DNA of 63,635 nucleotides, the filler included, from Vermamoeba vermiformis (taxonomy: Eukaryota), in the NCBI GenBank assembly GCA_045837725.1. It is 11 parts of 11 records of this genome, joined end to end, with 100 filler letters (N's around TTAATTAATTAA, not from the genome) between each part and the next. Parts side by side here need not be neighbours in the genome. Positions count along the whole stretch, not along the records: positions 49,587 to 56,009 come from JBEWZL010000015.1; positions 56,110 to 59,880 come from JBEWZL010000016.1; positions 59,981 to 61,093 come from JBEWZL010000034.1; positions 61,194 to 63,635 come from JBEWZL010000052.1; 7 more parts are not named here. One strand, 5' to 3'. Both the position numbers and the translations under genes were made by a program. Positions 12,131-63,635 of this stretch are shown piece by piece (the stretch's first letter is position 1; every line of letters starts with the position of its first letter). The notes under the pieces were generated by a model that was not told the DNA's origin, searched no databases, and saw nothing but the letters and a program-made list of their open reading frames with translations.

Positions 12131-12418
12131 CGATCATTGTTTGACAATTCCAAATAAAAGTGGCAATACACCTCAATTTATGTAAAAACAGGTTGAATTT
12201 GCAGTGTTCAACGAGTTATTTACTTTGAATTCAATCATGACTGTCTTCCATCTCAATTCATGACAGCTGACATAGCTTATTCTAAATTTCATGTAAAACA
12301 GGTTGAATTCGGTGTATTCAACCAGATTTTCGTATTAACTAGTACGTACTAATAAAACGGTAAATTTAAACTTGGTTCGAGTACAGAGTGCTAACGGATC
12401 TAGTTTATTTTAAATTGA

Positions 12419-17317: not shown

Positions 17318-19043
17318 TTATTGTTCGTCAGCAGTAAGATCTCCAACGAATACAACTCTGAACGGAAATTTGGCCTGAAGTCCCCTATTGTAGCCATTCC
17401 AATAGGATAACTCCATCAACTGCGTTAGTTTAGCCAAGTCTTCAATTGAATTAGCTGGAATATCTCTGCAGCTCAAGAAAACCAGATTCGGTAGTTTTTC
17501 AAGCGCTCGGATCAACTCTACTAAAGAATTAGAATTCAATAATAATACACTAATGAATTAAATATTACCCTGAGGGATACTAGGTACCATAGTTATGTCA
17601 GTAAGGTGAGTTAATCGCGTGATCCAGTGCGCCATAATTCCTGGATTGAATTCCACGTATCTAAATTTTAGCTCCTTCAATTTTTCCAAGCTACAGATCT
17701 CTTGAATAGCATTTTCACCCACAAATAGGCGATTTATGCTGAATGTTTCCAAGTTTGGTGGCAGATTCGACATTCTTGGTTGTGTACCACGATTTTGCCA
17801 GATCAGCTTGGTTAACTTTGTAAAAGTTGCAAAATTGGCTGCTGTAGTAGCACATTCTATGTCTAATTCTAACAGGTTTGTTAGCCCTGTTAGTAAGTTG
17901 AAATCAAGGTGCTGACGGGATGAAAAAAGATCGATCCGGAGACTCGTGAGGCTGTATAGCTGTCCAATTACAGAGACTAATGGCAAACCCATGGAACCAT
18001 ACATTAATGATTTTAAACTAGGTAATTTCAATAGGGGAGTCAAACTGGGGATGCCAGCATCGCAATTAATATCTAATTCCTCTAATTCGGTCAATTTTGT
18101 AATTTTTGTAAATGATTCGTCCGATATAAGTTTGCGGAGCCTAACATCGAGAGTTTTGAGGTGCGGTAGTTCCACGACTTCTGAAAAACTTGCATCGTCC
18201 ATTTGTCCAGAGAAAGAGCAATCCAAACGCTTCAATTGCGTCAATTCATTAAATCCACGTACTGCAAACGAGAGTGCGGGTCAGTTTCAGTGAATTATTA
18301 TTATTGTTTGCTTTTGGAAATGAAGAAATGGATTGAAAAATTGAATTTTAATTCGCTTTCTTTTCCTTTTCGAAAAAATAATTCAATGGATTTTATAGAC
18401 AAGTACTTACGTCTTTTCGTTGTCTCGATAGTTAATGAAGTTAATCTCGTATAGTTCTTGAAAAATTGACCCACGTTGAAATCTTCTTCGACCTCCGCTG
18501 AGTACCAAACCAACGATTGGAGATGAGTATGAGTGCGTATAAGTTCGTTTACGGCGGTCATATTGTCGCAAATGGTGCTTGGAAAAATCAGATCTATTTT
18601 CAACGATCGAAGATTTGGTAGACTTGTTGCTGCCACCAGATCGTAAAGTTGCAATATTTTTTGCCTATCTTTTTCGAGTCTTCTATCATTGGGAGCATAG
18701 AATAGTTCGAGTTCGCGAATATGAGACAGATCCTGCGAGAGAACGAAAATATCGACGCCGATCGGCCAATCCCTTTCCGTTTGCAAAATTTGGTAGTAAG
18801 GCCACGTTGAATCAAACATATTTTTGGCGGTCATGCCGAACCTAAATAATAATTAAATAAAGAGAATCAACTTGGTTTAATTTGCACTATAAATAAATAC
18901 AACAAAGCGTTAAATAGTCCTTTTTTTTAGTATTTATACTAGATTTTAAAAATATTTACTAACCTAATTACATCAGGCAGAGATAAGTAATGCCAAATAT
19001 CGCGCAGCACATCCTTGGGCAGCTCCAACACACTTCGCTCCAT
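17318..19043 (-). CDS. F-box/LRR-repeat protein (multi-exon)
   Basis: First exon MERSVLELPKDVLRDIWHYLSLPDVIR (F-box). LxxLxxLxL repeats in ORFs 18301-18834, 17558-18244 and 17318-17539. Confidence 0.85.
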
Positions 19044-19291
19044 TATTGAAAAGAGAAAAAAATACCAGGCACTGTGGTGTATACGGCTAGTATTGCATTA
19101 TCTGCATAATAATACACGTGTGTTGTGGTCGATCTACGTGTAAAATCAAAAATGGAAAAGAATCAAACTTTGTTTATTACCGCTTGTGGAAACAACAACT
19201 TTACTATTATTTATTTATGTAAATATAAAACTGGCACGTGCAAGTATCGCCTTCAGACCTGTTGAAAGAATTTTTGTCATCTCATCTAAAA

Positions 19292-22134
19292 ATGGATGCT
19301 GAAGGTAATGTTCGAATTACCTTATTAAAAATATCGCAAATATTTTAAAATTAATTATGGCATATTTAATTATATGCTCGGTATTGACTTTTAACAATAA
19401 TGGAAAATAAATCTGAAAAAATTTTCTAATCAATTGCAATCATTAGACTTGGCCGATGGTCTTCAAGATAGACCAATATCTAGTGAAGACGATGACTTCC
19501 CTCCGATGTCAAAGCATTCCAAGCTCGATCCATGGCAGGTAATGTCTTGACGAAAAATTAATATCTTATAATTGAACACTGTAGAGTAATAATTATACTG
19601 AGGATTTTAATATTTATAGAGATATTTTTGCCATATTTAATTTAGCTTAAAGTAGTCATATAAATTTCATGAATATTTAATCGACCTTTATTCCGATTGA
19701 CCTAAATCGTTGAATAAATTAAATAATTATTTTTATTTATTTATAGGAAGATAATAGTCGTAAAGATGCGACGGAAGTAATCATGTGGAACTACGAATCG
19801 AAACAGCCTTTGTTAGTTTTGAAAGAAATGGATCCGCCCATGACAAACGTACCACCCGAAATAGGACTATTAACGCATTTACAAGTCCTTAACCTATGGA
19901 AAAATTCATTAAGCAGCTTGCCCGAGGAATTTTCAAGGTTGATCCAGCTTCAGACGTGTTTATTACACTTCAATTACTTTGCAAATTTTCCACGGCAAAT
20001 GTTACATTGCACAAATTTACACGAATTGACATTACGAGCCAATAATTTGACGACAGTACCCGATGACATATCAAAATTGGTGTCCCTATCTTTCTTATCA
20101 CTACGACAGAACAACCTTAGTGTTATCACGCCTATAATGAATTTGACCAAGCTGCAAACTTTATTGGTGGGAAGAAACAAATTAACGCAATTACCGCGCG
20201 AAATTTCGCAATTGACAAATTTGCGAGAGCTATTTTTAAGTGGAAACGAGTTGAAAGAGTTGCCCGAAGAGTTATTCACGTTATCAAAGTTAGAAACGAT
20301 ATTAATTAGCAGAAATCATTTGACAAACGTGTCGGACAGTATTTCAGCCTTGACCAAATTGAAAGCATTTTACGGATCTTACAACAACATTACCAAAATA
20401 CCCGAAGGTACGTCTTAAACGATAGAATTATACTTATAATTGACGTAAATAATTTTTGTTTCGTTAAATATTATTTTAGGGATTTTTGGAAATTTTTTTG
20501 TGTAGATCGCGATCTGGATATTTTTGCAATTTCGAATGATACTTAGCTAATGAGCTAAATTAAATAGGAGTAAGCAACTTGTTAGAATTGGATACGTTGC
20601 AGATGGGCTTTAACGCCATTGAATCAATACCACGAGAAATTTGGAAAGCGACGGGATTGGAGTCGTTGGATCTGCAACAAAATCGAGTCCACGAAATGGC
20701 CGTATCCGAAGAAGATATGCATCACTTGACTAGATTCACTGGCCTATTATTACATTCAAATAGCTTGACTTCGTTGCCGTCAGAAATTTCAGCGTTAATG
20801 CAGCTACGAGTCTTGACGCTGAATTCGAATCAAATCACAGAAATTCCGCCAGAATTAATGAAATTGACCAATCTTATGGAGCTATCTTTCTCGAGGAATC
20901 CATGTAGCGTACCTGCTGATGTATTTACTTTGGAAAAGTTGACGAGACTCGGATGTGGCGGATGTGGTGTAGCTCTGACGCAAATTTCAACGTCTATAGG
21001 TAATTATACTACTAAGTCGCATATACGAATATTAACTTTATTTAATTATTATTACGAGGTTTAGTAGGAATTTTTTTTGTTTGGATCGCATCCGTTACAA
21101 TTTGTTTTAATGCTTTATTATATAGGAGTCATGACAGAATTGCGAACACTAGAATTAAACGACAATAATATCGCCGAATTACCAGTTGAAATGTCACGGC
21201 TAACGAAGCTACAAAAATTCTTCCTGCAAAATAATTGGCTTGCTTCAGCACCGGAATTTTTCTCCAATTTTGTTCATTTAAAGAAGGTACGTAATAATAT
21301 CAATCTAGATATTTACTAAGTAGCTTCTTGTTCATAACCTAATCCGGATGTGGTCTACACGAAAAATTTATCGTTTGCTACGTTCAAATAGATTGTGATA
21401 ATTAACGAATTTTATTATAGTTTTCCATAAAAGGAAATTCTTTAACATCGGTGCCGATGCACATGATCACAGCGTGCACGCAGCTCGAAGCGATGGATCT
21501 AGGCAGCAACAGAATCACTTCATTGCCTTCAGAAATTGGCTTATTAACCAAACTACTCGAGCTCTACGCACCGTTCAATTCGATCCAGGAGATACCAAAC
21601 GAGATTCAAAATTTACAGCTATTGACCAAATTAAGCTTGATCCAAAACCGGATTCGCGAGATCCCCGATGGCATCTTCAAATTGACGAGTTTATTGCGGC
21701 TTGTTATTCCTGGCAATCTACTTAGCGTAGTGCCCAAGGATATATCAAGATTACATAACTTGTCAGTGCTCAACCTCACCGCCAACGAGATCAAGGTGAT
21801 ACCGAAAGAGATCTGCCAGTTAACGAGCTTAAATAAGCTGATTTTATCTAATAATCAAATAAGCATAATACCGACGGAAATAGGCCTGATGAGTAGTTTA
21901 GAATGTTTCCATATTTCTAGGAATCGATTGCAATTTATTCCGAGCGATATTGGAAACTTAACTAATCTATTCTCGTTACGCTTGTTTCATAATCCGTTGG
22001 TTATGGTGCCTAAAGAGCTACTGAAAATAAGCAAAGCTAATATTATATTACCAACTCTAAAAAAGTTGAAGTTGAACGCTACCGATGAGATCGACGAAGT
22101 TTTGCAAGTCTACGAAGATCTCGAGCAATTGTAG
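19292..22134 (+). CDS. Leucine-rich repeat protein (typical LRR, SHOC2/LAP-like), multi-exon
   Basis: About 20 or more LxxLxLxxNxLxxLPxEI repeats across ORFs 19783-20418, 20579-21064, 21077-21319 and 21451-22134, joined by GT-AG introns. Confidence 0.9.
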
Positions 22135-35056: not shown

Positions 35057-37508
35057 TCAATCGTCATATCGCTTGTTTGGTTTTTTGTTTCGCTTTGTTC
35101 TTCCATAGTCAGTTGTGTTTATATTTCGGTATTCACGTGCAATCCACTCAGTACTTGTCACTGGCTGTATCAACACTGGGGCATCATAGTCATTTTCATC
35201 TAATTCATCTTCATCTGGATAAGTCTCTGGTATGACAGCATCAACATCAGGGTGCACTGCCTCGTGCACCACTTTCACTGAGGTTGTGGACTGGTCATGG
35301 TGACGCTGCTGTGGTGGCAAGAACATCAATTCATAATTTGTTGTTGGGCTGTCAAACTCAATATCTAGTAGATCAATTGCAGTTGTGTCGTCTTCTGCAG
35401 GCTGATCGGCATTGAATAATTCTTCAAAGTATTGTTGCTGTTCCTCAGATAGTTTGTCGTAAGTTTTTCTGGTCGCTTCAATCACTTTGTCGTCAATTGG
35501 CTTTGGTTCAATCTTGATTGGTTTGTCCGCTGGAATATTGTGAAGGATAACAATATCGTCACCATCTGCACCCCCTTTCCACTCCTCATCTGTTGCCGTG
35601 TAATTGCGCCAATGCATTACAACGCTTCCTTGTGCATTGACAGTGAATCGAAAAACATGGGGCTTTGTGTGCCCAGTGAGCTTTGGTAGATATGGGGCAA
35701 GCCAGCCACGATAATCATAGATAGTTTTTACCAATCGCACTTCTGGCGGCGAATTGTAGCAACTCTTAATGTACTCTTTGACATCTTCATCGTCGCCCGT
35801 AAGGAGATTATGTGACTTGAGTCCAATAGCCACTGGCACGTTCTCTTGGTCAATGTCTGTATGAGTGTGTCCTTGAGGAAGGCAAATGAAATAGATGGTA
35901 TTGGTAAACTTTTTGAGCAGCAAAACCGCAAAAAAGCCAAAAACGTAGGTATTTTTGTTCTCTCGCCAGCAGTTGTCGCTTTGAAATACCATTGTTGGTG
36001 GCAGAGCCTGACCATCTCTGATTTGCGAAACTATGTGAATGGCTAGTAGATTGATGCTGTAATTGCTGTCGTGACTATACTGTTGTGCAATTGAGACAAA
36101 CAGAGTACGTCGCTTGGTGTTGTGGTTGATAAGTCCGGATATTTGCAATCGCAAACGTGCAAGACGGAGCCAAGATTTTGGGAACTGAGACCAGGCAATG
36201 TGCGGAATCAAAATCCCTGAATAGCCATCCCATATCATTTGCCAAATCAAAAAGCTAGCGATTAGCTTTCGGTTAGAATATGTCAGCCGTTCTAACTTTT
36301 GCAATGCGTTGTGCTTTGCCACTTGCTTTTGAACGTTGGTAACTTGAGTTTGGGACACTGCAGCAGCTTGTTGCAACTTCCTACGCAAGATTAGCTTCAC
36401 TGTGAGTATGGAAGAAACTTACATTCTGAGCTCCACACATTCGTCACATTTGCCCAACCGCGTAGTCTTTGGGAATTTGATCCATGCGTACTGAGAAATT
36501 GTCGTATAGAAAGTACTCAGCGATGCTATGCGATGCGTTTCCTCAAATTCTGAAGCATATTGAGCGTAAAGAAGCTTTTTGTTAAGCGCAATAGGGCAGT
36601 GCCATTGATCACTATCAGGTTGTTCATCGAAAAATATGGACATCAAGCTGAGCACAAAACTTTGCACCGACTGTAATTGAGCTGATGAATACAATCTGAG
36701 GGCATTACCATGTGGAATGACAGAGCAACTAGACTCTTGTTTGATTTGTTGTAGCAGAGGTGCAAGCTTGTTTGTACTGATTCCAAGCAGTTTGATGAAA
36801 GCGCGTTGACAGACTTCAAGACCGTCAAGCTTGTAACAAATCGTCGGAGGCTTGTCACTTCCTTGATCAACTTTCATCGCATTAAGGGAATCAAGTAGCC
36901 ATCTTGACCTGCCATCGTGTCAGGCATTTAGCAGAAACATGAGGTACGTACCTTTCGCGCTCAGATTTCTCAGAGTATGGCAGTCGTAAGCGTTCAATCT
37001 TCTGGACATTAAATTGCCTCATACACAGTTGTTTGCAGCACTTGTATTGCAACAGCTTTTCATTGAAATTACATAGCTTAAGCTGCTTTCGTGATGGTGA
37101 CGCGACGCGCAACTTTCGAGTCTCGGATTTGTAAGTGCGTTTTGGGGAGGGGTCATAGATTGAGGATACTCGTCTATTAATATCTATTATGTGTAAGCAA
37201 TGCAGCTAATTGTAGAACGATACGTACCGTCAAAAATTTTATTGCTATCAACCTCGTAAATCCACGACCGCCGATCATCGCTCGTGCTTGTTGTCTCATC
37301 TTCATCTACATATATTAATGAAATGCAGATAGATATAAATGCCCATACCCTTATTGAAGACTTTTGTTGTGTCAAAATCGCAGATCCAGTCCATTCGACA
37401 ATTATTAAATTAATTATTGCGTTATCGGCACGTGACGGCTTCAGCAATTTATCTACAATGATGGGTGTTATTGCACATATTATTACTGTTACTATTGTAA
37501 TTATTCAT
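35057..37508 (-). CDS. Sola-like (DUF7869-type) DDD transposase, spliced; 5' exons uncertain
   Basis: CCKQLC, VCQRAFIKLLGIS, KFPKTTRLGKCDEC, HNALQKLERLTY, WDG, FQSDNCWRENKN and LPQGHTHTDIDQ. A short intron near 36422-36380 removes the apparent stop. Confidence 0.82.
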
Positions 37509-45080: not shown

Positions 45081-45370
45081 ATTACAATAATTATTAAATG
45101 TCCAACTCGNNNNNNNNNNNNNNNNNNNNNNNNNNNNNNNNNNNNNNNNNNNNTTAATTAATTAANNNNNNNNNNNNNNNNNNNNNNNNNNNNNNNNNNN
45201 NNNNNNNNNGCAGTGCATGGCCAAACATTGCAAGGCTGCAGCGTACGAGCCCATGGACACCATGCCAAGATAACAAAGGGCAGTCTTATGAAGGGTGAGT
45301 TTTACAGCGGCCAATAACCTGAATTCTGAGCCAATTTCTAGAAGAATCAATATTGTATATCTTTTCGTCT

Positions 45371-47632
45371 GGAGGACGTCCTGCCCAAATTAGACAGGGT
45401 GTCCGTCCATGGACAGGGTGTCCGTCCATAGACAGGGTGTCCGTCCGTGGACATGGTGTCCGTCCGTGGACAGGGTGTCCGGTCCCGGACGGGGTGTCCG
45501 CCGTGATTGGTAATTGACAAAACAGACCGGGGTTTTTTGCTAAATATAGTTTATATATGATTTACTTATGGTTGTAAGTGAGTTGAGTTAAAATATTGCA
45601 TAGGAATTATAAAAAGTACAAAAAGTGGTAAAAGTTCTATGAAGAACAACAGAGCATTCCTGATCACTCATTTCTGTGGCTATTACCTGCATTGGGAAGT
45701 TGTGTTGGTCCACTGGCCTCAGATTCGACTTCTGAGTGGTTTTCATCAAGTTGTTCTAAGTCAAAGCTCTCATCCAAGTAGTGTCCTTCATTAGGTGCAA
45801 TTGCATTCAAGCTATCTTTGATATGTTCAATGTCTGCAGCGTTAAGGGCTCCAAATGGGTAGTCAAGTTCTATCTCCTTGATACGATCATGTGCAATTTG
45901 TTGAAGGTGATAAAGTCGGTCACCTTCTGGATCTTCACCAAAGTCATATGAAGTCTCCAATTGTGAATTGCGGAAAGCGTTGTGGTCTCGGTACTTTTGA
46001 CTTGCACTGGTGAACTCCTTCCAATAATCGTAGTACCGCAAGAATGGTGCCACATATTGGACATCCGACAAGACAAGGCGAATAATTTTCGTACGGGAGT
46101 TGTTCATTTCTTCAGCTTCTTCAACCTCCATTTCATACTCTGGTGCCTCATCTTCAACTTCTGGAGCGAGTCTTCTCTTCTTTCTTGGTGGCTCCGGACT
46201 TGCAACAGAATCTGATTCATTTGTAGCAGGTCCAGATACTGGCGAAGGAATAGAAGACATATCTATTTCATTTCTGGTAACCTGGCGGCCTTTGAATCTG
46301 GCAAGCTTCTCAACAGTAGATCTGAAAGGCTGGCGGGCCAATGGCACAGGGGGAAGATCATTCTCTGGTATTCCATCATAGGCAAACAATGAATGGTTGG
46401 TGTCAAATCTTTCATTGTTTTTCTTTGCTCTGATGTTGATGTTATGCATAGCAGCACACAGGCGGAGAAGTAGGTTGAATTCCTTGATAGCAAACTCGTA
46501 TGTAGACTGGAAGATTGTAAACATGTTTTTTAAGGCTCCAAGGGCATTTTCCACTGCTCCACGGACACTTGAAATTGCTTTGTTCTCCATCTCAGCAAAT
46601 GAAGATAAAGGCAGGTTTCTGGGTTTTCTATGTGGTGCTATCCAAGTAAAGTTAGACAAGTTCTTCATAGAACTATTTAAACTTACTGACTGTTTTTCTT
46701 TCATCCGAGTCTTTTGTAAATGCTCCATCGGCAATAGACACATCATCAGCAGTCAAACTATCACAATAGGCATCGCCATATCTGCTCCACAGTTCTTGAT
46801 CATTAAATGTGCCAGCAGGATGTGAAGGGGAGATGTAGAAAATGATGTGGTCAAATCCAGTCCCAACCAATTGGTTCACTGCATCACATTTCAACTTGAA
46901 TGAATGCCAGCTATGCTCTCCTCTGACATCAGCAGGAACCTTGACAGCCATGTGAGTTCCATCCACAAGGGCAGTAATTTCTTGCCAAACACCACGGTTT
47001 CTTCTCTCAGAGCTTTCTTTTCTTTCAGCATGAGTCGATGTAATGTTTTCATCGACTTTGTCTTGAATAAGCCGAATTAAAGAAACCATTCCTTTAATGA
47101 ATTCAGACATTGAGCTTCTTGCAATACCATAGAATTTTTCGTATGTTCTAGTGGAATAATGTTGCATTAACCAGTTCAAAAAGAGGGTGACAGCGTGTTC
47201 CAATGTATAGCCCATTCTATTAAGAATTAGAAATTTCCGAATAATTTTCCAATAATTAATTAATATTTAAAAAATTAATTACACTTACGGAATACTTGGG
47301 AACTTTGTTTTACCCGGCAAGGGCTCATTCAAAACCTTTTTTAATGCATTATATAGCCATATTTGTGCCTTTGAATGCAATCTCTTATTGAAGTGGTTGA
47401 TATTCTCCCAAGTTTCCTTACTTAAGCGACGATCAGCACGAGTTCTACCAAGCTATTAGTATGAGAGGTATTTGAGTAATATTATAGGGGAATACTTTTG
47501 AGGCTTATTAGGCTCCATTTGTGCTATTTTTATCAAACTGCTAGAAATACTATGGACGGCGGACGCCCCGTCCGGCTCCGGACGCCCTGTCCGAATCCGG
47601 ACGTCCTGCTCAAATTGGGCAAGACGACCTCC
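45371..47632. mobile_element. PIF/Harbinger-superfamily transposon (2262 bp) with GGAGG TIRs, subterminal repeats and 3-bp target duplication TCT
   Basis: TCT|GGAGGACGTCCTGCCCAAATT ... AATTGGGCAAGACGACCTCC|TCT. Tandem GGACAGGGTGTCCGTCC(A/G)T subterminal units at 45390-45500. Contains a DDE_Tnp_4-type transposase. Confidence 0.85.
45664..47453 (-). CDS. PIF/Harbinger (DDE_Tnp_4/HARBI1-like) transposase with a long acidic C-terminal extension; first exon uncertain
   Basis: ALVDGTH, HSFKLKCDAVNQL, PAGTFND, IADGAF, TPHRKP and RGAVENALGALK. Introns 47288-47217 and 46686-46638 restore one frame. Confidence 0.9.
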
Positions 47633-48013
47633 TCTGTCCGTGGACATTGTGTCCGTCGGGGTCGCTGCATCCGCTGAAGTTAGTAATTGACCAACGAATA
47701 CCAAACTTTGCCATTATCACCAGCGGACCCAAGAAGGACTACTATTGGCATCAGGAGGCTTTGGGCTAGCTGCTGGAGGATGAAAATGTCATTGTTCTGC
47801 AAAGAACTTAAGTACTAGAACTTTGTTCTATATGCTGCAAAACCATTTAAACTTTGGAGAAACATAGAACTATCACTATATATAGGGTCCGCTGGTGCTA
47901 ATGGCAAAGTTAGGTATAAGTTGGTCAATTACTACATCAGCGGACGCACCGACCTCGGACGGATGCAATGTCCACGGACGGACGAAAAATTTTTGGCGGA
48001 CGGGACGTCCGCC
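47633..48013. mobile_element. Rearranged fragments of the GGCGG MITE family in inverted orientation
   Basis: 47633-47880 is the reverse complement of about 14095-14340. 47886-48013 is a direct copy of about 14245-14369. Confidence 0.8.
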
Positions 48014-48281
48014 TACATATCTTATGCACCACGAACTTTAGCTACACCACATCCTCAAACCTAGCTACACCACTACATTTCATATTTCATATAATAAAAC
48101 AAACTGGAACATTTCTGTTAGCTACTAACTTATGGGGACGCCCCGTTTTTTGGAGGACCCCTCTTCCATGCAAGGGTGCCCTGGATGCACCACAAAAATA
48201 GGGATCGACCCATTATCTGCTGTACGTCACATAATGCTGCGCCCTAATCTGTGAATACTTAATCTGCATTTTGTATAGTGC

Positions 48282-48979
48282 GGAGGTCGTCCTGCACATG
48301 GTGAGCAAGGTGTCCGTCCATGGTCAGGGTGTCCGTCCATGGACAGGGTGTCCACCGTGGACAGGGCATCCACCGACCTTAGTAATTGACCAATTCAAAT
48401 GCGCCTTGTTTCAGCATGTAGAACATGAATATAATATGGGTGGATTTTGCTTTCTGGCTGCTGAGGAGTGCTGTAGAACAGAGATTAGGAGGGGATGAAG
48501 TTGCCATACATTGGTGATTTCAGCAAACTCCATTTAAGTACTAGCACAGAGCTTAACCACCCGTATAAAGATTGATTATGAATTTTCTGGCCATTTTGTT
48601 GCTTACATATGAAGAACTCCCATTGAAGTTGGTTGCAAAAAAAAGTGTTACTTACACAGAACCAACCTCGTGCATCAATAGTTCTGTATAGAACTTGGTG
48701 TATTTTCAATTCTCTACAAATTTAATGTTGTTGAAAGGGTGTGCATGTCAACTTTTTTGTATCAGCTTTGATTTAAGTGCACGCATAGATTAGGAAGCTG
48801 CTTACTATAGCTATTGAAACTGTAAACATTTGGAGCCAAGTGAGGTATGCAGAAGACTAGTTCTGTTCTAAGCAATTGCTGCAACTGTCAGAGAAAACCT
48901 AAGGTCAGCGGACGCCCTGTCCATGGTGGACGCCCTGCCCATGGTGGACGTCCAGCTCACAGTATGCAAGCCGACCTCC
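48282..48979. mobile_element. 698-bp MITE related to the adjacent Harbinger element, 3-bp target duplication TGC
   Basis: TGC|GGAGGTCGTCCTGCAC ... TGCAAGCCGACCTCC|TGC. Same GGACAGGGTGTCC subterminal repeats at both ends. Confidence 0.88.
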
Positions 48980-49658
48980 TGCTAGTACGCTACTGCAAAG
49001 TTAAACTGGTATTAGGCAAAAAGGACAAAGTTCTTTTACGGGCTCAGACGTAGGATTGTTGTCCTGTCTGGCCGATGTGTGGTCATATTGCAGCAATTAG
49101 AACAAAGTTCTGGTGCTTAAGTTCTTTCCGGAATTTGCCATTTTCTGCCTCCAGCGCTTGGCCTGAACGCTCCTGATGCAACAGTAGTACTTGTTGATCC
49201 TGCTGGTACTAATGGCAAAGTTTGGTCTAAGTTGGTCAATTACTAACATCAAGACACAGCGACCCGAGATATCATAGTTGCATTTGGTTGGATGGTGCAG
49301 AAGTGTTCTGTGTTCAGTCTGCATTATTTCATCATTAAAATCAGGGGAGAATCACTCTTTTTTTCTCACCACAACTAACACTTAGATTTGCTGGCACAAG
49401 ATGTCAGAGGTGGTGACAACAGCTTGTACTGGCTCAAAAGCAAAAGAGGTTTAGATACAGGGCCTTATGCAAGCTCTACAACATTTNNNNNNNNNNNNNN
49501 NNNNNNNNNNNNNNNNNNNNNNNNNNNNNNTTAATTAATTAANNNNNNNNNNNNNNNNNNNNNNNNNNNNNNNNNNNNNNNNNNNNTAAGACCCTAAATC
49601 AAATTTTGTCTCCTGATCGCAAAAACATTTTGTTGTATCTGTCGACAAATTGAAGACA

Positions 49659-55827: not shown

Positions 55828-56110
55828 TGTTCGCTAATCTTATATTTGTAGGTCATATAAAGCGACCTAATTTCAGCGATTGGTTTGATCTGGATCTGGA
55901 TTCAAATCCACCAAAAATTTTGTTGTTGGATCGCAAACCTGTCATTTTGCTCCACCGTTGTCTGACGAGAACATGTACTCCAGTTCATCTAACGAAAGCA
56001 ATAGTGATGNNNNNNNNNNNNNNNNNNNNNNNNNNNNNNNNNNNNNNNNNNNNTTAATTAATTAANNNNNNNNNNNNNNNNNNNNNNNNNNNNNNNNNNN
56101 NNNNNNNNNG

Positions 56111-56297
56111 CCCTAACCCTAACCCTAACCCTAACCCTAACCCTAACCCTAACCCTAACCCTAACCCTAACCCTAACCCTAACCCTAACCCTAACCCTAA
56201 CCCTAACCCTAACCCTAACCCTAACCCTAACCCTAACCCTAACCCTAAACCCTAAACCCTAAACCCTAACCCTAACCCTAACCCTAACCCTAACCCT
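56111..56297 (+). repeat. Telomeric repeat tract (CCCTAA)22 (CCCTAAA)3 (CCCTAA)5 CCCT
   Basis: Read directly at the contig start. C-rich strand at the 5' end, as expected for a chromosome end. Confidence 0.98.
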
Positions 56298-56455
56298 CGC
56301 TCGAACTTAGCCCTAACGAAAAACTTAACCCTAAGGGTTTGCACTTCTTCAAACAACTCAAAACTTGGTTCAAACTTAAGTTTAAACCTAGCACCGTTAT
56401 TTTTTATTAACTACAAGTTAGTTGTCTTTGTTTAAACTTGCTTTTTCTTTTTACA

Positions 56456-59400
56456 CTACTTACAGAAGTAGCAGTTGTCACTTAGCCATTCTCCTCCTCC
56501 AAAGCCATTCAAAGCCAATGGATCAACAGTGCCCAATGCTCCGTAGCAGTACTTGTAGCGTTTGCCTGACTTCTCCAGCCACTTGACATTGACTCGTGAC
56601 TTGTTCACCACTGTAACCACCTCAGCAAGCCAAAACTCGTCCTTTGAGCACTCTGGGTTGACAGAAACAACATCTCCTGGCTTGAGCACACAACCATTGA
56701 GGGAGATTTCTTTGTCTTTGTACGTGATGAGCGTGCGCTTTTTGGATGGCTTGTCTTTTGAAGTTGAGGCTCTCTTGCGTTTGCGTGAGTTGGTCTGGAT
56801 TGCAGATGAAACCAATTCCATGCCAACACCTTCACTACTGATTGAAGTCGGCTCAGCAGGAGTATTCTCCATTGACATGGGCTCAAGCTCTGCTTCACTT
56901 GACGAGTCTAGCTCAGGCACGCCTTCATCGAAGCTCTCAGACTCGCTGTCCGAGTCGCTGTCCAAGTCACTGTCTGAGTCGCATGAGTCTTCATCATTGT
57001 GACAGCGATCGCAACCAGCTCCTGCGCAGCACTCGTACGCGTCCATCTCCTCGTCGGTTAGGGTTGGTAGCTGCAGTTGTGGGTTGTTCTTTCTCAGTGC
57101 AAGAGCTTTCTTTTTCAAGAACTCGATGACCAAGGCCACAGCACCGGAGAGAGTCATGTAGTTCTTCCATTGCTTGGAGCCGTCTTCGAGCTTACACAAG
57201 TACTGGCGTATGTTGTTCCAGTAGCGCATGTCAACAACTTCCTTGACAACCTCGCCCTCTTTCTGCAAGTACGTGGCTTCGGCAGCACGCTCGTTGATTG
57301 CATTGCGGATGCCCGACAGTGGCTCAAGAGACAGAGTCGTGTTGATGGTCTGCAGGGTTTCAGCGGACAGCTTATTTTGGTTCGCTCTGTTGTAGTTCTG
57401 CATGAGAACTTTGTCTGATGTATTGATGAGCGTCGCGTGCTTTGATGCCCAAGCGAAAAAGTCGTTAGGTCGCTCTGCCATAGCAACTGCCATCTCAGTC
57501 ACCATAATGCGTCGTATAGTGATGGGAGTGATGATGCGACCAGGAAACACCTTTTGTACTCGGGTCTTCACAAATTCAGTGATGCGTTGTGGACCTGCAA
57601 TAACATTAGAACAATCGTGTGCAAGCATAATTCAATACTCACGTAAAGGTTTTCCCTCTTTGCTGACAAAACAAGCAAGAACCTTGCTGTCCTTGCCCAC
57701 GAGCCTCGGTCTGAACTCGTCGATCCAGATACGCAGGAGGTTGCCGAGAGTCTCCGGCAAAGCCAGGCGATCAGTCCTGCGCTTCTGTACTTTCTCGTCC
57801 AAAGTGAAATGAACGAGCTGACCATCAATAATAGCAAAGTTCTAATAATAACGTCAATAAATATTGAATGTGTTCGAGTAACAAAACTACTTACATCGAT
57901 GGCAAAGTTGATGAACACTTCACGGCGTTGTCCACCAGTTTGTAACAGTGCAAACAAGATTATTATCTTTTGAAACTGATAAACCTCGAGTTTGGACTGC
58001 TTTCGTTTCTTTGACGCCTTAAGAAACAAGACAATTTGAATGCTGACATATTTGTTCAGCTTGGACAGCTCTGCTGGCTAAATAAACACTTGTAAGACAA
58101 CGAATAATAACGGGATAATCAAAATTACCTCGAGCCATTGACCTTTCAGTAACAAATTAATATTAAGGCAATGTTGACTGTGGTGAAGCGCGTTCTGAGC
58201 CTTTTTCCGATTGACGTACGCGTGAAGTAGTTTGAATATTGTTTCAATGCGTGCTGCGTACTCTCTGAATCGCTCAATGGTCTATCACACGTGTTAGTAC
58301 ATTGTATCTTTAGTAAGAGCAATTAACTTACCGTCATGTGCTTGTACAGACTGACCAAGAACTTGGCTTTGTTGCCCGCCGAGTTTGGAGAACCAGCGTG
58401 TTGCCCATAAAACTCGAGGAACGCACTGACTGTTATGTTCGACAGTAAGTGATCCTCGCTGGGCACGAAGGTCTTGTGATCCTCGTCGTGAGTGATAGCA
58501 ATGAATTTGAAGAATTGAGAAATTGCTGTACGCGCGTTGCTGCCACGATCACTCGCCTTCTTAGCCATTATTCCTTCGTCGACTCTCTCACGGCTGTGGG
58601 CAGGTTGCTTCTCCAACAAGGCCTTGCGCTCTGAAATGATCCACGTGGCGACAAACGGGAGGTTCTTCTCGATATTGAACGAGTAATCTGCAGCCCTGAA
58701 CCTTGGTCGGTCACCAGTCTTCTCCGACTGCGGCTTAAGGTAAGCGCTGTAGTCGTTACTCTGGTAACATGGAGGGTGTTTGTCGTACGAGTCTTCTTTG
58801 AGCTCCAACGCGCCGGCCTTAACTAAATCCAATGTTAGCCGTACTCGTATTTATAATAAAACAATACTTACCCATGTACGTCTCCTTGCATTGCCTCTCG
58901 TGCTTGACTTCCTCTTTGAGTTGATTGTTCGTGGCCATCAACTCAGCATTCAGTCGCCGAAGGTTTGCTACTTCTACAATAACGATTAGAACGAGTATAA
59001 CTATTTAAAGATTGTTTACCTTGTACTAATGCTTCTTTGTTCAATTTGCGCACCGCGTCTTTACCACGAACCAGCGGGAGCTTAATGAAGCGAACAGCGT
59101 TGTTGGCACGTGCTCGACCGCTGCGATCCAGAATTTCAACGCAAGGATCCTGTAATCGAGTTATTAACATAAAATAACTATTTAAATAATACTAGTACTT
59201 ACTGGCTCCTTGGCCATTGTCTCGAGCGCCGCGTACAAAGTATCCATGAGCTTGACCTTCGCCTCCTTCGCCTTGACGGTCCATTTTGAGCTTCGTATCG
59301 CCTTGAGTTGTTTGCAAACGAACTATTCATAATGTATTAGTACAGCAGTAAATTAATTTTAATATAGCGCGATGATACTTACCTCTTTCGTCTCGAATCT

Positions 59401-59531
59401 ATTCGCGATCCGCTCCAATAAATCGATGTATGTAATATCAAACACCGCAGATATATTTGCGGAGTACTAATATAATATTTAGTAATTATATATAGTCATA
59501 TTAAATTAAAATAACGTTAACTTACGTCCAT
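56456..59531 (-). CDS. Intron-rich (10-exon) tyrosine recombinase with C-terminal chromo-like and BAH/Tudor-like domains; Crypton-like mobile-element protein
   Basis: All exons splice in frame from ATG 59531. Motifs LLQTGGQRREV (R), LDEKVQK (K), RIWIDEFRP, ITPITIRRIMVT (R) and ATLINTSDKVLMQNYNR (Y). Then VKEVVDMRYWNNIRQYLCKLEDGSKQW, an acidic linker, an NLS, and LKPGDVVSVNPECSKDEFWLAEVVTVVNKSRVNVKWL. Confidence 0.8.
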
Positions 59532-61362
59532 AATTGCGAAATTGCCAGCAAAATTGCCTGAAGCGGATGCAGACTGGTCAACAGTACAAGCCAGCGAAAC
59601 AGTTAAAAGTACGTTGCCTTTGTGTTGCTACGTACTCGGAGGAAAGGCAAAATGAACAAAACTGAAACGCAAGAAATTAGAAGAAAAATTCGTTCGCGGA
59701 AGCGACGAACAATTTATTAATAAACGTGAGCATTTTAATACAAATTGATAACGTCTTACGTGTATATTAACGTTGAATAGCCATAAATGGTGTCAAACTT
59801 GGCACCAGTTACTCGTTGGACTGAGATCCGATAAAGAGAGCAACGGATCCACCACCAGCCGACCCCTTCGCCCTAACCAANNNNNNNNNNNNNNNNNNNN
59901 NNNNNNNNNNNNNNNNNNNNNNNNTTAATTAATTAANNNNNNNNNNNNNNNNNNNNNNNNNNNNNNNNNNNNNNNNNNNNGGGGATCAACGAGGGGCCTG
60001 GATCGGCAATGACAGCGAACGTGCATTAATTCTAACAATACAATTCTATTAATAATTGGTTAAATAAGATATTTAAACAATAAATTAACTTACACATCAC
60101 TCACCGGGCAAAGTCCAAGATCGCGCATCCGGGCAAGTTACGGATCACGCCTTTCAATCGTATTGCCATTTTCAACCGATCTATTAATAAAAATATTAGC
60201 AATTGCATTATATAATCATATAGTAATACTTACGAGCTATATTGGAAATGCCAATCAGAATTTTGACCACTCAGATTGTGTTATCCACACATCCGTTATT
60301 TCTCTAGTGCACACTAAACAAAATAAAAATACTATTAATACGTTATAATTAGTTATAAATATTGAGTTGGACTTGCGTTTGACCTAGTCGAGGGCCATTT
60401 AATGAATACGATCCGTTGTTGGATCGCGCGCTTGACTCTTCAATGATTTCATTCGTGCAGCCTATTCAATAATATGTTAGCACGAATTATTTAGAATAAA
60501 ATAACTTACATTTAAAAGAGCATTCTTCGCTGTGTTCGAGTTGAAAAGTGATCTGATCGCACGCTGTAACTCAACATAAAGATTCGCAAGCACTTCTACG
60601 CACAAATAATGTTATATTATATTATAATATTAATATAAGATGATGTAATACTTACTTGTGGCTTAGTTTATCGCTCCACGAGTAACTTTGATTGATTGAT
60701 CCACGCGTGGTGAACGATGACCATGTGGCTTTGTTCGTGGATTTAATTGAATTCTGCAATACAAATGGTTAGCACTGGCCAAATAGTACGCGGATATATA
60801 TGTAATCTTGTTAACTTACAGTCCTAAGCAAATTTTTGTTCGCGTGAAGATCGCGCAGGAGATCCGTGTCTCCGACTTTGCTAGACCTAAAATTAAGTGA
60901 TTAGATTATCATATGCATATAAAATAACAATACTAATGTACTTACGTGTATATCAACGTCGATCACTGTCCGACCGACTTTATGCTCGATCTGATCAAGC
61001 ACCAATATTTACGCATCAATCGCCTGTAAATTTGCGATTAGATAATTGTTTTAATTATAATAAATACGTTAATTTAATTTTTATTCGAGCACANNNNNNN
61101 NNNNNNNNNNNNNNNNNNNNNNNNNNNNNNNNNNNNNTTAATTAATTAANNNNNNNNNNNNNNNNNNNNNNNNNNNNNNNNNNNNNNNNNNNNATCATTT
61201 ACATATCGAATTAGAGCGGATGTGACCGAAACAATGGATTAAGTACAGAAAATTTCTCGTACTTTTTGCGGTCTCAAAATCAAATTTTGAACGCTTAAAA
61301 TTAGCATTTATTTATAGGTTCAATACTAGTGTAGGCTTTGATCGTGCTAGCAAGTTCTCAAT

Positions 61363-61792: not shown

Positions 61793-63635
61793 CCCTGGAA
61801 AAAATAATTCGTCCTTGCCTTGCCCACGGAGCGAGGCAAGGCTCCATACATTGTGTATACAGGGAAACCGCGAGGCAAGGCTCCTTGCTCCAAGACCAAG
61901 GCAAGGACAATGAACCGACCGTGACGCAGAATAGCCCTACAGGTATTTTCATGAAAATAACAATATATTCGGATAATAGAGATTTATTAACTTAAATACA
62001 AAGTACAAACGCAGATGTAGGTGGCGATCAACGGATGAGGGTGGCTAACGCAATTATGGACCCTAAAATGAATATTAGAATGTAATTTTTGCACGGATTT
62101 TCCTTACGCGACATTGCAGTGGGACATCCGTACTTGAATTCGCTCTTTCTGCTTGAATCCGCTCTAAAAAAATAAAATCAATTTTCTTGTACAACATACA
62201 TAATATACTTACAAAATATACGGCCACAGCTGCGTAAATATTTTCGGTAACGAGATGCAAATTAGATTTGATCAAGTCAAATCGTTTCTTGTGTCGGCTG
62301 CTAACTAACAAGCTATGGAATATGATTATTATTATATAGATTATAAATAATATTTTTATCGTACCATTTGGCATTGCTGTGTTTGGCTGATCCGCACGCG
62401 CACGAACTTGAAACTATCTAGTGCAGTTAGAGCTTGATATACTATCATTACTTTAATATTAAACTTTCCATTGAAGTGTTGTTTACATTCAGATTACTCG
62501 AACAAAACTGCGCAATCCGCCAAAGACTATTTTTTGAATGGGCTCTTGGTTCAAATTAGGTGTTGATTGCTTTATAATTGCATCAACTTAAATCAAATAG
62601 ATTAATCTGAGCTGATTATGTGTTATATTCTCGGTCTAGCAGGTTTGAGTGTTGCATTCCGTGATCCAGTTGTCTGTATTGATGCTTAAATTGAAAATTG
62701 CATCGATACCATTTTAATATTTTACAATCGTAAATCCAAATTTACCAAACAATGAGTAACTCAGCGAGCGGGTTCAAATCTGCGAGATCTGAACCTTCTA
62801 TCTCAATCAATGGATTCCGTCATCAGTGTTTATATTATAGAGTTAAATCCTAATATTTCTTATTCATGTTTATTGCGTTAATTGCCTTGAATACTGATTC
62901 CGTAATCAACATCCGCCACTGCTTTTTCCGACCTGGATCAAGTTGCCATTTTTATGTCCGATACCTTCTAAAGGCAAACAAGTCAGTATAGTATGCATAA
63001 ATTTACAACATTCAAAGAGAAAACTGAAGTTGTAACCGGGTATTGCCCCTGGACTTTTTCGATCCGTATCGGTTTCTGCTAGAACAACGATGGGGAGTCA
63101 TATTACATTTTTCTGTCACTGAATAACGAATTTTAGAGTCAAAGATGCCAAAATCTTTTGTTATCGCTGATAAGATCCGCCGTTCTGGATCAAATCTTAA
63201 AAAGCTGCAGAATCAGCGACTTTTCATCATAAATAAAATGTAATGTGTGGATATGTGTCATTTTTATTTTGAAATTATTGATTAAAAGCCTACAAAGGGA
63301 TCGTCATTCGGATCTTGCTCTCGATCAGCATCAAACTCGCGTTCTGCCAACAATCAATCAACTTGCTCGCCATACGTTACATCTAATGCACTATTGTATG
63401 ATATTATTGCAATAAAATTACCTACCTCCGTGCCTTGCCTTGTTCGTAGCGCAAGGCAAGCAATCATTATCCGCCTTGCCTTGTTCGTAGCACGAGGCGA
63501 GCAATCATTTTTTGCCTTGCCTTGTTCGTAGCACAAGGCGAGGGACGATTTTTGCCTTGCCTTGCTCCAACTCCAAGGCAAGGCTGCCTTGCCTCGCTCC
63601 ATGCGCGAGGCAAGAACGAATTATTTTCTGCAGGG
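61793..63635. mobile_element. Non-autonomous TIR DNA transposon (about 1.84 kb) with CCCTG termini and GCAAGGCAAG-type subterminal repeats
   Basis: Left end CCCTGGAAAAAATAATTCGTCCTTGCCTTGCCCACGGAGCGAGGCAAGGC versus right end (reverse complement) CCCTGCAGAAAATAATTCGTTCTTGCCTCGCGCATGGAGCGAGGCAAGGC. Tandem GCCTTGCCTTGTTCGTAGC units at 63432-63540. Confidence 0.85.

What the first reader, a model, noticed from the sequence alone, without database searches (positions are those of the whole stretch)
56110..59880. Telomere-abutting, intron-rich tyrosine recombinase with two chromatin-reader-like domains: candidate telomere-targeting YR element
Seen: ten exons splice into one uninterrupted frame, transcribed toward a (CCCTAA)n tract that ends only about 160 bp from the stop codon. 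R, K, R and Y catalytic positions are recognisable (GQRRE, EK, TIRR, NYN), while the two His positions appear substituted (TPITIRR, LINTS). A chromo-like and a BAH/Tudor-like domain follow. No reverse transcriptase, capsid or polymerase gene is on the contig. Established: Cryptons are YR-only DNA transposons that can contain introns, chromodomains direct chromovirus integrases to heterochromatin, and most described telomere-specific elements are retrotransposons. Inference: a YR DNA element using histone-mark readers to home to telomeric chromatin, or a domesticated recombinase acting at chromosome ends.
Basis: partly seen in the sequence, partly recalled or inferred. Interest (0 to 1): 0.87.

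Follow-up and report, generated by a model that had tools for sequence, protein, structure and literature searches.

The report
Telomere-adjacent recombinase gene with chromatin-binding folds
The last gene before a chromosome end encodes a rare, very divergent tyrosine-recombinase-like protein fused to two chromatin-reader-type folds, a new domain combination, but nothing shows that it seeks out telomeres.

Summary
Contig 56110-59880 carries a 10-exon, 868-aa gene on the minus strand. Its stop codon lies 158 bp from a (CCCTAA)31 tract that runs to the contig end in true-telomere orientation.

The protein belongs to a very rare, Pfam-less eukaryotic family: 16 hits among 1.84 billion representatives. 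Profile-profile comparison with XerD supports a tyrosine-recombinase catalytic domain (P about 6-8e-6; shuffled controls far lower). The family's R, K and R align to XerD R148, K172 and R247. The Tyr and an Asn at the second His position are invariant, and both His positions are substituted.

AlphaFold2 and Foldseek on the window's own last exon and on a homologue give a chromodomain fold and a short BAH-like beta domain. The canonical chromodomain aromatic cage is not kept.

Telomere targeting is not supported. Two independent relatives' loci have no telomere tract where the window has one.

Best reading: a chromatin-tethered, Crypton-like tyrosine recombinase gene, either a low-copy element or its domesticated descendant. 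I rate it a new variant of a known kind, of moderate to high interest.

The parts
56111..56297 (+). Telomere tract, (CCCTAA) x30.7, reaching the contig end. It contains three CCCTAAA variant units near 56245-56265.
56298..56340 (+). Degenerate telomere-like junction (CCCTCGCTCGAACTTAG CCCTAA CGAAAAACTTAA CCCTAA GGG). Other sequences in the same sample share it and diverge at 56332 and 56334.
   Evidence: loose ends, table 7.
56341..56455 (-). 3' flank or UTR of the gene, with an AATAAA at 56403-56408. At 56382 a second genomic context joins: 28 loose letters ending in CCCTAACCC.
56456..59531 (-). Coding region of the 868-aa protein. Exons: 59531-59526, 59466-59383, 59322-59203, 59149-59020, 58973-58872, 58822-58332, 58281-58129, 58077-57895, 57841-57643 and 57594-56456 (stop included).
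   Evidence: collinear with P0005; intron positions shared with L084.
57323..58077 (-). Tyrosine-recombinase-like catalytic region (exons 8-10, introns 8 and 9 included). Codons: R of GGQRRE 57925-57927; K of VQKR 57782-57784; first R of IRR 57512-57514; invariant N of LINTS 57422-57424; invariant Y of NYNR 57392-57394.
   Evidence: hhalign against XerD; invariant columns; Atlas features.
57083..57256 (-). Chromodomain-fold module: three strands plus a helix, pLDDT 88-95. The canonical aromatic cage is not kept.
56771..56785 (-). RKRKR basic patch inside an acidic, Ser-rich disordered linker. It is a likely nuclear localisation signal, invariant in the BAH-bearing subfamily.
   Evidence: The NLS function is inference.
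56459..56710 (-). C-terminal BAH-like beta domain of about 80 residues (pLDDT 86-95), with invariant FWLA, W-L and G-x-W motifs.
59532..59880 (-). 349-nt upstream flank. The contig ends 2 nt after an isolated CCCTAACC (59871-59878). A contig assembled from a public sequencing run continues 1437 nt beyond this end.
   Evidence: (record 8).

Best explanation
The gene is real and intact. It encodes a nuclear protein built from four parts: a long N-terminal region, a divergent tyrosine-recombinase (YR) catalytic domain, a chromodomain-fold module and a short BAH-like module.

Proposed mechanism (inferred). The catalytic domain cuts and rejoins DNA through a 3'-phosphotyrosine on the invariant Tyr of NYNR. 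The two Arg and the Lys activate the scissile phosphate. An invariant Asn stands where other YRs have His or Trp. The C-terminal modules and the RKRKR patch take the enzyme to the nucleus and hold it on chromatin.

The family behaves like a low-copy, intron-bearing, Crypton-like YR lineage. It may still be selfish or already be domesticated; these data cannot tell.

The position next to the telomere is real for this copy. It is best read as residence in a subtelomere, not as demonstrated telomere-specific insertion.
For: Gene model.

YR homology:
- In-script hhalign of the family's catalytic alignment against 79 XerD sequences gave probability 83.9%, P 7.7e-6, score 46.6 over 146 columns. R of QRRE aligns to XerD R148, K of VQKR to K172, and the first R of IRR to R247.
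- Controls scored far lower: 2 reversals 13.5-14.0, 30 column shuffles at most 23.1, 30 block shuffles at most 27.7.
- An independent run with tool-built alignments (A3 vs A7) gave probability 85.5%, P 5.8e-6.
- XerD R148, K172, H244, R247, H270 and Y279 are invariant in A7.
- Language-model features: 20 of 30 named nearest clusters carry PF00589 at 0.93.
- N, T, S, Y and A of HA.LINTS....Y are invariant or nearly so in 17-18 sequences.

Chromo fold:
- Profile search against PDB: 19 of 26 hits are chromodomain proteins, best E 6e-4 (repeated).
- Foldseek on the window's own model: CBX1 TM 0.79-0.82 with rmsd 1.0-1.6; also Rhino, MPP8 and CBX3.

BAH-like fold: EBS, SHL, DNMT1-BAH1, AIPP3 and BAHCC1, at E 3.6e-4 for the homologue and 5.8e-3 for the window.

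More than one copy or allele:
- Variant contigs at about half depth, and a second 3' context at 56382.
- A 376/378-identical variant, P0017.
- Two paralogues, L084 and L086, that share 136 nt of upstream DNA at 98.5%.
Against: - Pfam finds no Phage_integrase, DUF3504 or DUF3435 in any exon, in P0005 or in the other relatives scanned.
- PDB profile searches find no recombinase.
- hhalign against single Cre and lambda Int sequences finds nothing.
- AlphaFold2 models the catalytic part poorly (pLDDT 25-70). No recombinase appears among the listed Foldseek rows.
- The Tyr region aligns to XerD only at low confidence and out of register.
- Both His positions are replaced, so activity is unproven.
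- Nine introns conserved between 40-50% identical paralogues look more like a host gene family than a typical transposon.
- No terminal repeats were found.
- The copy census rests on contig depths, which the tool warns are not copy numbers.
Confidence: 0.55

Rival explanations
1. Domesticated host gene. A YR-derived chromatin protein inherited vertically and duplicated like any gene family. It would act as a host recombinase or topoisomerase-like enzyme, or as a DNA/chromatin binder in subtelomeric chromatin.
For: - 9 of 9 intron positions, including the 6-nt first exon, are shared with L084 at 47-50% protein identity. Read-through peptides mark the same junctions in P0002, P0008, P0010, P0022, P0023 and P0028.
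- Low member and contig counts per cluster.
- An intron-less 849-aa form on about 3.5-kb contigs (P0005, P0021) alongside an intron-bearing genomic form (P0022 and P0023 on one 7093-nt contig) suggests a spliced transcript (inference).
- No terminal repeats.
- Precedent: DUF3504 genes are domesticated Crypton YRs (PMC3212892, abstract and passages).
Against: - Domesticated DUF3504 proteins lost most of the catalytic tetrad. This family keeps R, K, R and Y throughout.
- The family is extremely patchy and unnamed in 1.84 billion representatives.
- The 3' end has two different contexts in one sample.
- The variant copy carries 7 non-synonymous against 4 synonymous changes, and 8 of its 16 differences are CpG transitions.
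Confidence: 0.3
2. One reading: a YR DNA element that homes specifically to telomeric repeats or telomeric chromatin through its reader domains.
For: - This copy lies directly against the about 37-nt junction that other chromosome ends share (loose ends at 56332 and 56334).
- A second context of the 3' end starts with ...CCCTAACCC at 56382.
- An isolated CCCTAACC sits at the other contig end. Two such 8-mers lie in the 3.6-kb non-telomeric part of the contig, against 0.65 expected for the whole 63.6-kb window.
- L084 has a TTAGGG about 105 nt after its stop, and L086 has (TTAGGG)2 3.7 kb upstream of its gene.
- One of 30 Atlas neighbours is a ResT/TelK telomere resolvase cluster.
Against: - 0 of 2 independent relatives' loci (L084; L086, which equals L085 and L087) have a telomere tract within 245-290 nt after the stop.
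- The chromo-like domain lacks the aromatic cage.
- The public-run contig continues 1437 nt past the upstream end, so the unit is not embedded in a long telomere array.
- The short telomere-like motifs are few and could be chance.
- Only one telomeric copy has been seen.
Confidence: 0.12
3. Catalytically dead YR-fold scaffold. The domain only binds DNA or protein, as proposed for DUF3504, and the protein is a plain chromatin factor.
For: - Both His positions are replaced. The HxxR His position is variable (I, Q, L, T, A, G), and the second position is Asn.
- No Pfam YR hit.
Against: - R, K, R and the Tyr are conserved across both subfamilies down to about 20% identity.
- Topoisomerase IB and telomere resolvases also work with substitutions at these positions (recalled, not tested).
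Confidence: 0.15
4. The telomere-gene junction is an assembly chimera.
For: The contig is short, and the junction region branches in the assembly graph (three loose ends at 56332-56382).
Against: Public-run contigs 56305-56411 (depth 27.3) and 56382-58047 (depth 28.0) in run X1 overlap and have equal depth. These runs may be the window's own source, so this is not independent support. I laid only 56280-59880, so the long tract itself was not tested.
Confidence: 0.05

Closest known systems
Crypton DNA transposons (YR-only eukaryotic elements)
   Same: The only enzyme encoded is a YR-type protein, with no reverse transcriptase. The gene can carry introns, no terminal inverted repeats were found, and copy number is low (PMC3212892; PMC13465315 abstract).
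   Different: - No match to DUF3504 or any other Pfam YR model.
- The His of the R-H-R-Y tetrad is not kept.
- It carries chromo-fold and BAH-like modules. PMC3212892 says YR is the only recognisable domain of animal Cryptons.
- Termini and mobility are not shown.
DUF3504 genes (ZMYM2/3/4, QRICH1, KCTD1, KIAA1958, WOC): domesticated Crypton YRs
   Same: A YR-derived domain inside a longer, intron-bearing nuclear protein with other chromatin or DNA modules, and conserved intron positions.
   Different: DUF3504 lacks most of the tetrad. This family keeps R, K, R and Y. There is no Pfam DUF3504 hit.
Chromoviral (Ty3/gypsy) integrase chromodomains
   Same: A chromodomain fold fused C-terminally to a DNA-integrating enzyme, which could bias the enzyme to particular chromatin (recalled: Gao et al. 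2008; not read here).
   Different: The enzyme here is a YR, not a DDE integrase. There is no retroelement context. The cage residues are not kept. A BAH-like module is added.
Telomere-specific retroelements (endonuclease-deficient Penelope-like elements, TRAS/SART, MoTeR)
   Same: Orientation toward the chromosome end, with telomeric repeats at the 3' side (passages in PMC4522978).
   Different: No reverse transcriptase. The gene has nine introns, so it is not a retro-copy. The relatives are not telomeric.
Bacterial XerD/XerC and other PF00589 recombinases; ResT/TelK telomere resolvases
   Same: Collinear profile match that places R, K and R on XerD R148, K172 and R247. Nearest named feature clusters are PF00589 (20 of 30) and one ResT/TelK cluster.
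   Different: 13-20% identity. The His residues are replaced. It is eukaryotic and spliced, with extra N- and C-terminal domains.

Membership tests
Tyrosine recombinase superfamily | Sequence-profile similarity to a bona fide YR family over the catalytic domain | tested here: met
   hhalign against XerD alignments: P 7.7e-6 and 5.8e-6. In 62 control runs (2 reversals, 60 shuffles) the best score was 27.7, against 46.6 for the real comparison. Not seen with Pfam, with PDB profiles, or with single Cre and lambda Int sequences.
Tyrosine recombinase superfamily | Catalytic R, K, R and nucleophile Y | tested here: met
   R, K and R align to XerD R148, K172 and R247. The Y of NYNR is invariant, but its alignment to Y279 is of low confidence.
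Tyrosine recombinase superfamily | The two His (or His/Trp) of the catalytic pocket | tested here: not met
   XerD H244 aligns to a variable residue (Ile in the window). The H270 region has an invariant Asn.
Tyrosine recombinase superfamily | Cre/lambda-Int-type fold of the catalytic domain | tested here: inconclusive
   The AF2 catalytic region has pLDDT 25-70. No YR appears among the listed Foldseek rows. The wide structural library was unavailable.
Crypton transposons | Complete R-H-R-Y tetrad | tested here: not met
   The His position is not conserved.
Crypton transposons | Sequence membership in a known Crypton YR lineage (e.g. DUF3504 = CryptonA) | tested here: not met
   No Pfam hit at E up to 1. 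No Crypton reference sequences were on hand for a direct comparison.
Crypton transposons | Multiple dispersed copies with defined termini or short flanking direct repeats, and evidence of mobility | not testable with these tools
   No whole genome is held. The evidence is limited to at least 2-3 sequence variants and two 3' contexts. No terminal repeats were found on the contig.
Chromodomain (HP1/Polycomb type) | Three-stranded sheet plus C-terminal helix fold | tested here: met
   Window model pLDDT 88-95. Foldseek TM 0.76-0.82 to the Oxpecker, Rhino, CBX1, MPP8 and CBX3 chromodomains. Profile E 3.4e-4 to 1.2e-3.
Chromodomain (HP1/Polycomb type) | Three-residue aromatic cage for methyl-lysine | tested here: not met
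   In the CBX5 alignment the Y of EEYVVEK, the W of LLKWKGF and the F of KGF face the family's k, y (Leu in the window) and an invariant G. That these are the cage residues is recalled.
BAH domain | BAH beta-core fold | tested here: met
   Top Foldseek hits are BAH domains of EBS, SHL, polybromo, AIPP3, DNMT1 and BAHCC1, at E 3.6e-4 and 5.8e-3. Only about 80 columns align, with TM relative to target 0.3-0.4, so the match covers a BAH core, not a full BAH domain.
BAH domain | Match to the Pfam BAH model / a histone-mark pocket | tested here: not met
   No Pfam hit. Pocket residues could not be aligned, because the single-sequence and profile PDB searches gave no BAH row. The invariant F, W, W, Y and W are only suggestive.

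The most novel reading that the evidence does not exclude
A previously undescribed lineage of eukaryotic tyrosine-recombinase elements. It would use a BAH-like module and a cage-less chromo module to dock on subtelomeric or telomeric chromatin and settle as the terminal gene of chromosomes. Short TTAGGG units would mark its recombination junctions. This would be the first telomere-homing DNA (non-retro) element.
Probability: 0.12. Interest if true: 0.85.

Novelty: new variant of a known kind. Interest (0 to 1): 0.6.

Why it matters
Eukaryotic tyrosine recombinases are known from Cryptons, Starships, DIRS-like retroelements and domesticated DUF3504 genes.

A lineage that keeps the catalytic R-K-R-Y and has acquired chromodomain-fold and BAH-like modules would be a new architecture. 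It would be the YR counterpart of chromoviral integrases, and a candidate for chromatin-directed recombination.

No paper in the searched library combines 'tyrosine recombinase' with 'BAH domain' (0 papers). The 6 listed of 8 papers that combine Crypton, tyrosine recombinase and chromodomain are, by title and abstract, on other topics.

The family is invisible to Pfam. It is therefore probably unannotated or masked in the few genomes that have it.

Tried and rejected
- Whole-genome search: no genome is held, so there is no copy census.
- Protein search for longer relatives: 0 of 7791 candidates. P0005 among proteins of similar length found only itself. Among shorter proteins, 1 hit (P0028) of 1298.
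- Other copies in the window: none. tblastn gave only weak chance-level hits.
- Rfam and tRNA scans of the window: nothing.
- RNA evidence: no RNA holder was listed. Two RNA-seq runs labelled with the same species gave 0 reads on the stretch, but no control stretch shows that the organism is in those runs. This is no evidence either way.
- Structure search that does not depend on Foldseek (pdb_via_wide): the library was not on the machine.
- Alignments A1, A2 and A5 misplaced the short exons 7 and 8. I therefore did not use them for folding, and the R-I helix had almost no alignment depth in the fold.
- Cre and lambda Int relatives from the public viral-contig collection were all 99-100% identical and useless as profiles. 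hhalign against the two single sequences gave nothing. hhalign in global mode gave a meaningless result.
- Single-sequence PDB searches with the chromo-like and BAH-like stretches: no relevant hit.
- Terminal inverted or direct repeats on the contig: none beyond the telomere tract.
- Family in viral contigs: none.
- The loose-end motif elsewhere in the window: none.
- Earlier findings of this scan: none.
- Organism: not determined. A sugar-transporter exon's nearest clusters are mostly fungal, and the introns look fungal, but this is weak.
- Supplements of the papers could not be seen. The lists of Crypton families in PMC3212892 and PMC13465315 might hold a relative.

Full report
WHAT THE WINDOW IS

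The 63,635-base window is not one locus. It is 11 small eukaryotic contigs joined by N runs around TTAATTAATTAA (10 linkers; segments). The finding is exactly one contig, 56110-59880 (3771 bp). No whole genome is held for it, which limits every question about copy number.

THE OBSERVATION

Tandem Repeats Finder reports (CCCTAA) x30.7 at 56111-56297 with 98% matches. A three-unit probe hits only there: 24 hits against 0 expected. The C-rich strand lies at the 5' end of the contig, so the tract has the orientation of a true chromosome end.

On the minus strand I rebuilt the gene. It has ten exons and nine GT..AG introns of 59, 60, 53, 46, 49, 50, 51, 53 and 48 nt, most with a CTAAY-like branch motif. 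The CDS is 2607 nt and encodes 868 aa. The stop codon is at 56456-56458, 158 bp from the tract.

The model is not a product of chance:
- It is collinear from end to end with an intron-less 849-aa homologue, P0005 (330 identical of 831 aligned, no gaps at exon junctions).
- A relative's genomic locus, L084, has introns at all nine homologous positions, including the 6-nt first exon ATGGAC.

HOW RARE THE FAMILY IS

- The last exon (378 aa) found 16 proteins at E <= 1e-3 among 1,835,955,588 cluster representatives.
- Word-indexed searches found no longer relative (0 of 7791 candidates), only P0005 itself among proteins of similar length, and one shorter fragment, P0028.
- All are unnamed or 'hypothetical protein'. 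They come from metagenomes, assemblies of public sequencing runs and a few NCBI contigs.
- Many are single-exon gene calls that read through a short intron at the same junctions as in the window.
- Pfam finds no family above cut-off in the five window exon translations searched, in P0005 or in the four other relatives searched.
- There are two subfamilies. One has the C-terminal beta domain: the window, P0002-P0008 and P0005. A more distant one lacks it: P0010-P0016.

IS IT A TYROSINE RECOMBINASE?

Evidence for:
- I aligned the family, including the script-spliced window protein, and compared its core-binding plus catalytic part with an alignment of E. coli XerD and 78 relatives. hhalign gave probability 83.9%, P 7.7e-6, score 46.6 over 146 columns.
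- The match is collinear. The first R of GGQRRE faces XerD R148, the K of VQKR faces K172, and the first R of IRR faces R247. XerD H244 faces Ile.
- Controls scored far lower: two reversals 13.5 and 14.0, 30 column shuffles at most 23.1, 30 eight-column block shuffles at most 27.7.
- An independent repeat with tool-built alignments that do not contain the spliced sequence (A3 vs A7) gave probability 85.5%, P 5.8e-6.
- The six XerD residues named above are invariant in A7. That they are the catalytic residues is recalled knowledge.
- A language-model feature search with P0005 residues 250-625 put PF00589 clusters in 20 of 30 named neighbours at 0.93, and one ResT/TelK cluster at 0.92. This is a lead, not proof.
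- Across 17-18 family members, the A, N, T and S of HA.LINTS and the Y ten residues after that N are invariant or nearly so.

Evidence against or missing:
- No Pfam YR hit.
- No recombinase in PDB profile searches.
- No match to single Cre or lambda Int sequences.
- The Tyr region aligns to XerD only at low confidence and three residues out of register.
- AlphaFold2 models the catalytic part poorly (pLDDT 25-70), so the fold test is inconclusive.

I put the YR assignment at about 0.8.

THE TWO C-TERMINAL DOMAINS

I folded a homologue (P0019) and the window's own last exon.
- In both, a three-strand-plus-helix module is confident (pLDDT 85-95). In the window it spans exon-10 residues about 113-170.
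- In both, an about-80-residue beta domain at the C-terminus is also confident (pLDDT 85-95).

Foldseek against PDB:
- Homologue: BAH domains first. EBS 3.6e-4, SHL 5.4e-4, polybromo, AIPP3, DNMT1 BAH1 and BAHCC1. Chromodomains also appear, for example CBX3 with TM 0.77.
- Window model: the same BAH set at E 5.8e-3 to 4e-2. Chromodomains score TM 0.76-0.82 relative to target: Oxpecker, Rhino, CBX1 (rmsd 1.0-1.6 over 50-52 columns), MPP8 and CBX3.

A sequence profile of the family also finds chromodomain proteins in PDB: 19 of 26 hits, best E 6e-4 (repeated).

The folds are therefore supported.
- In the CBX5 alignment, the three residues I recall as the aromatic cage face a non-aromatic residue, Leu in the window, and an invariant Gly. 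The canonical cage is absent.
- The beta domain covers only the BAH core (TM relative to target 0.3-0.4) and has no Pfam BAH hit.
- Its invariant F, W, W, Y and W could form a pocket, but that is inference.
- An invariant RKRKR patch in a disordered acidic linker suggests nuclear import (inference).

THE TELOMERE QUESTION

What the public DNA runs show. I laid contigs assembled from two public DNA runs labelled with the same organism onto 56280-59880. They cover the whole stretch.
- Pieces 56305-56411 (depth 27.3) and 56382-58047 (depth 28.0) overlap, so the junction between the degenerate telomere-like region and the gene is backed. The runs may be the assembly's own source, so this is not independent support.
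- Two other sequences share the junction and diverge at 56332 and 56334. The last about 37 nt are therefore generic chromosome-end sequence, and the gene unit lies directly against it.
- A second context joins at 56382: 28 letters ending in CCCTAACCC.
- Beyond the upstream end, a run-derived contig continues for 1437 nt. The unit is therefore not embedded in a long telomere array, although an isolated CCCTAACC sits 2 nt from the contig end.

What the relatives show. A metagenome scan returned four loci.
- L084 holds a complete paralogous gene with 245 nt after its stop.
- L086, L085 and L087 are one locus at 99.8-99.9% identity, with up to 290 nt after the stop.
- Neither independent locus has a telomere tract. 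There is only a single TTAGGG about 105 nt after the L084 stop, and a (TTAGGG)2 3.7 kb upstream of the L086 gene.
- L084 and L086 share 136 nt of upstream DNA at 98.5% identity, so they come from one genome or from close relatives.

Telomere adjacency is thus shown for one copy in one organism, and telomere homing is not supported. I give it 0.12.

MOBILE ELEMENT OR HOST GENE?

For an element:
- The catalytic residues are conserved, whereas domesticated DUF3504 genes lost them (PMC3212892, abstract and passages).
- The distribution is extremely patchy.
- The 3' end has two contexts in one sample.
- There are at least three sequence variants: the window, a variant at about half depth in run X2, and P0017 at 376/378 identity.
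- The X2 variant differs at 16 sites. Eleven are exonic, 7 non-synonymous and 4 synonymous, and 8 of the 16 are C>T or G>A at CpG. This looks like a methylated, decaying copy. Alleles of a diploid or dikaryon would explain much of it too.

For a host gene:
- Nine conserved introns across 40-50% identical paralogues.
- Low counts per cluster.
- A probable spliced transcript of the P0005 gene (inference).
- No terminal repeats.

I cannot decide, and give about 0.4 for an element and 0.3-0.4 for a host gene. The mechanism I commit to is the same in both cases: a nuclear, chromatin-tethered enzyme that cuts and rejoins DNA through the invariant Tyr.

COMPARISON WITH WHAT IS KNOWN

The closest kind is Crypton. 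These are YR-only DNA transposons that may carry introns and lack terminal inverted repeats (PMC3212892; PMC13465315, abstract only). I do not file the gene as a Crypton:
- The R-H-R-Y tetrad is incomplete.
- No known Crypton model matches.
- Termini and mobility are untested.

It works like a YR. It resembles chromoviral integrases in carrying a chromodomain fold behind a DNA-joining enzyme (recalled).

In the literature library, 0 papers hold both 'tyrosine recombinase' and 'BAH domain'. Eight papers hold Crypton, tyrosine recombinase and chromodomain. The 6 listed are, by title and abstract, about other topics. The passages on Crypton and telomeric repeats in PMC4522978 are unrelated to each other. 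Supplementary files could not be read.

VERDICT

YR-like catalytic domain: yes. Chromo and BAH-like folds: yes. Reader function: unproven, with no chromodomain cage. Telomere targeting: not supported by the relatives.
- It is a new variant of a known kind, in a family that current domain libraries do not see.
- Interest: 0.6.

Noticed in passing
window 1-63635: The window is a chain of 11 unrelated small contigs (1.1-23 kb) joined by N...TTAATTAATTAA...N linkers. Neighbouring features across a linker are not neighbours in the genome.
   Followed up: yes
window 45210-49486: This contig has a DDE_Tnp_4 (Harbinger/PIF-type) transposase ORF at 45664-46752 and several 18-19-nt tandem arrays. Its CpG observed/expected ratio is 0.58, the lowest of the 11 contigs (0.78-1.62 for the rest), which suggests a methylated transposon.
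   Followed up: partly
window 35057-36418 (-): A 453-aa ORF matches Pfam DUF7869 strongly (E 1.8e-47). It is probably another mobile-element protein.
   Followed up: no
window 11765-12138: A tandem array of 50-nt units (7.4 copies, 87% matches) with an internal palindrome (GAATTC...).
   Followed up: no
window 63431-63564 and 61800-61900: 41-nt tandem repeats are built on the inverted motif CCTTGCCTTG...CAAGGCAAGG. The same motif recurs about 1.6 kb away in the same contig.
   Followed up: no
window 56245-56265: Three CCCTAAA (TTTAGGG) variant units lie inside the otherwise pure CCCTAA tract.
   Followed up: no
window 59871-59878 and 57056-57063 (-): There are two isolated CCCTAACC 8-mers in the non-telomeric 3.6 kb of the contig, one of them 2 nt from the contig end. 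Two more lie elsewhere in the window (6115, 10134). Only 0.65 are expected for the whole window.
   Followed up: partly
window 57561-59193 (variant contigs of run X2): A second copy or allele differs at 16 sites and one 1-nt insertion. Eight differences are CpG transitions, and five of these turn Arg codons into Cys, His or Gln.
   Followed up: partly
L086 1-3960 and L084 1-136: Upstream of the relative's gene lie three copies of an about-400-nt repeat and a 131-nt tandem array. A 136-nt segment there is shared at 98.5% with the paralogue's locus L084. In L086 it is followed by TTTTAGGGTTAGGGTT, and it contains the palindrome GGCAATTGCC flanked by GATC.
   Followed up: partly
L087 1-32 vs L086 4925-4956: Two otherwise 99.8% identical metagenome contigs diverge completely upstream of a point inside the gene, after exon 2. 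This could be a truncated copy, an intron indel or a chimera.
   Followed up: no
window 17558-22134: A cluster of leucine-rich-repeat ORFs on both strands. The first contig carries an EGF plus Kelch ORF at 302-1858. The organism was not identified.
   Followed up: no
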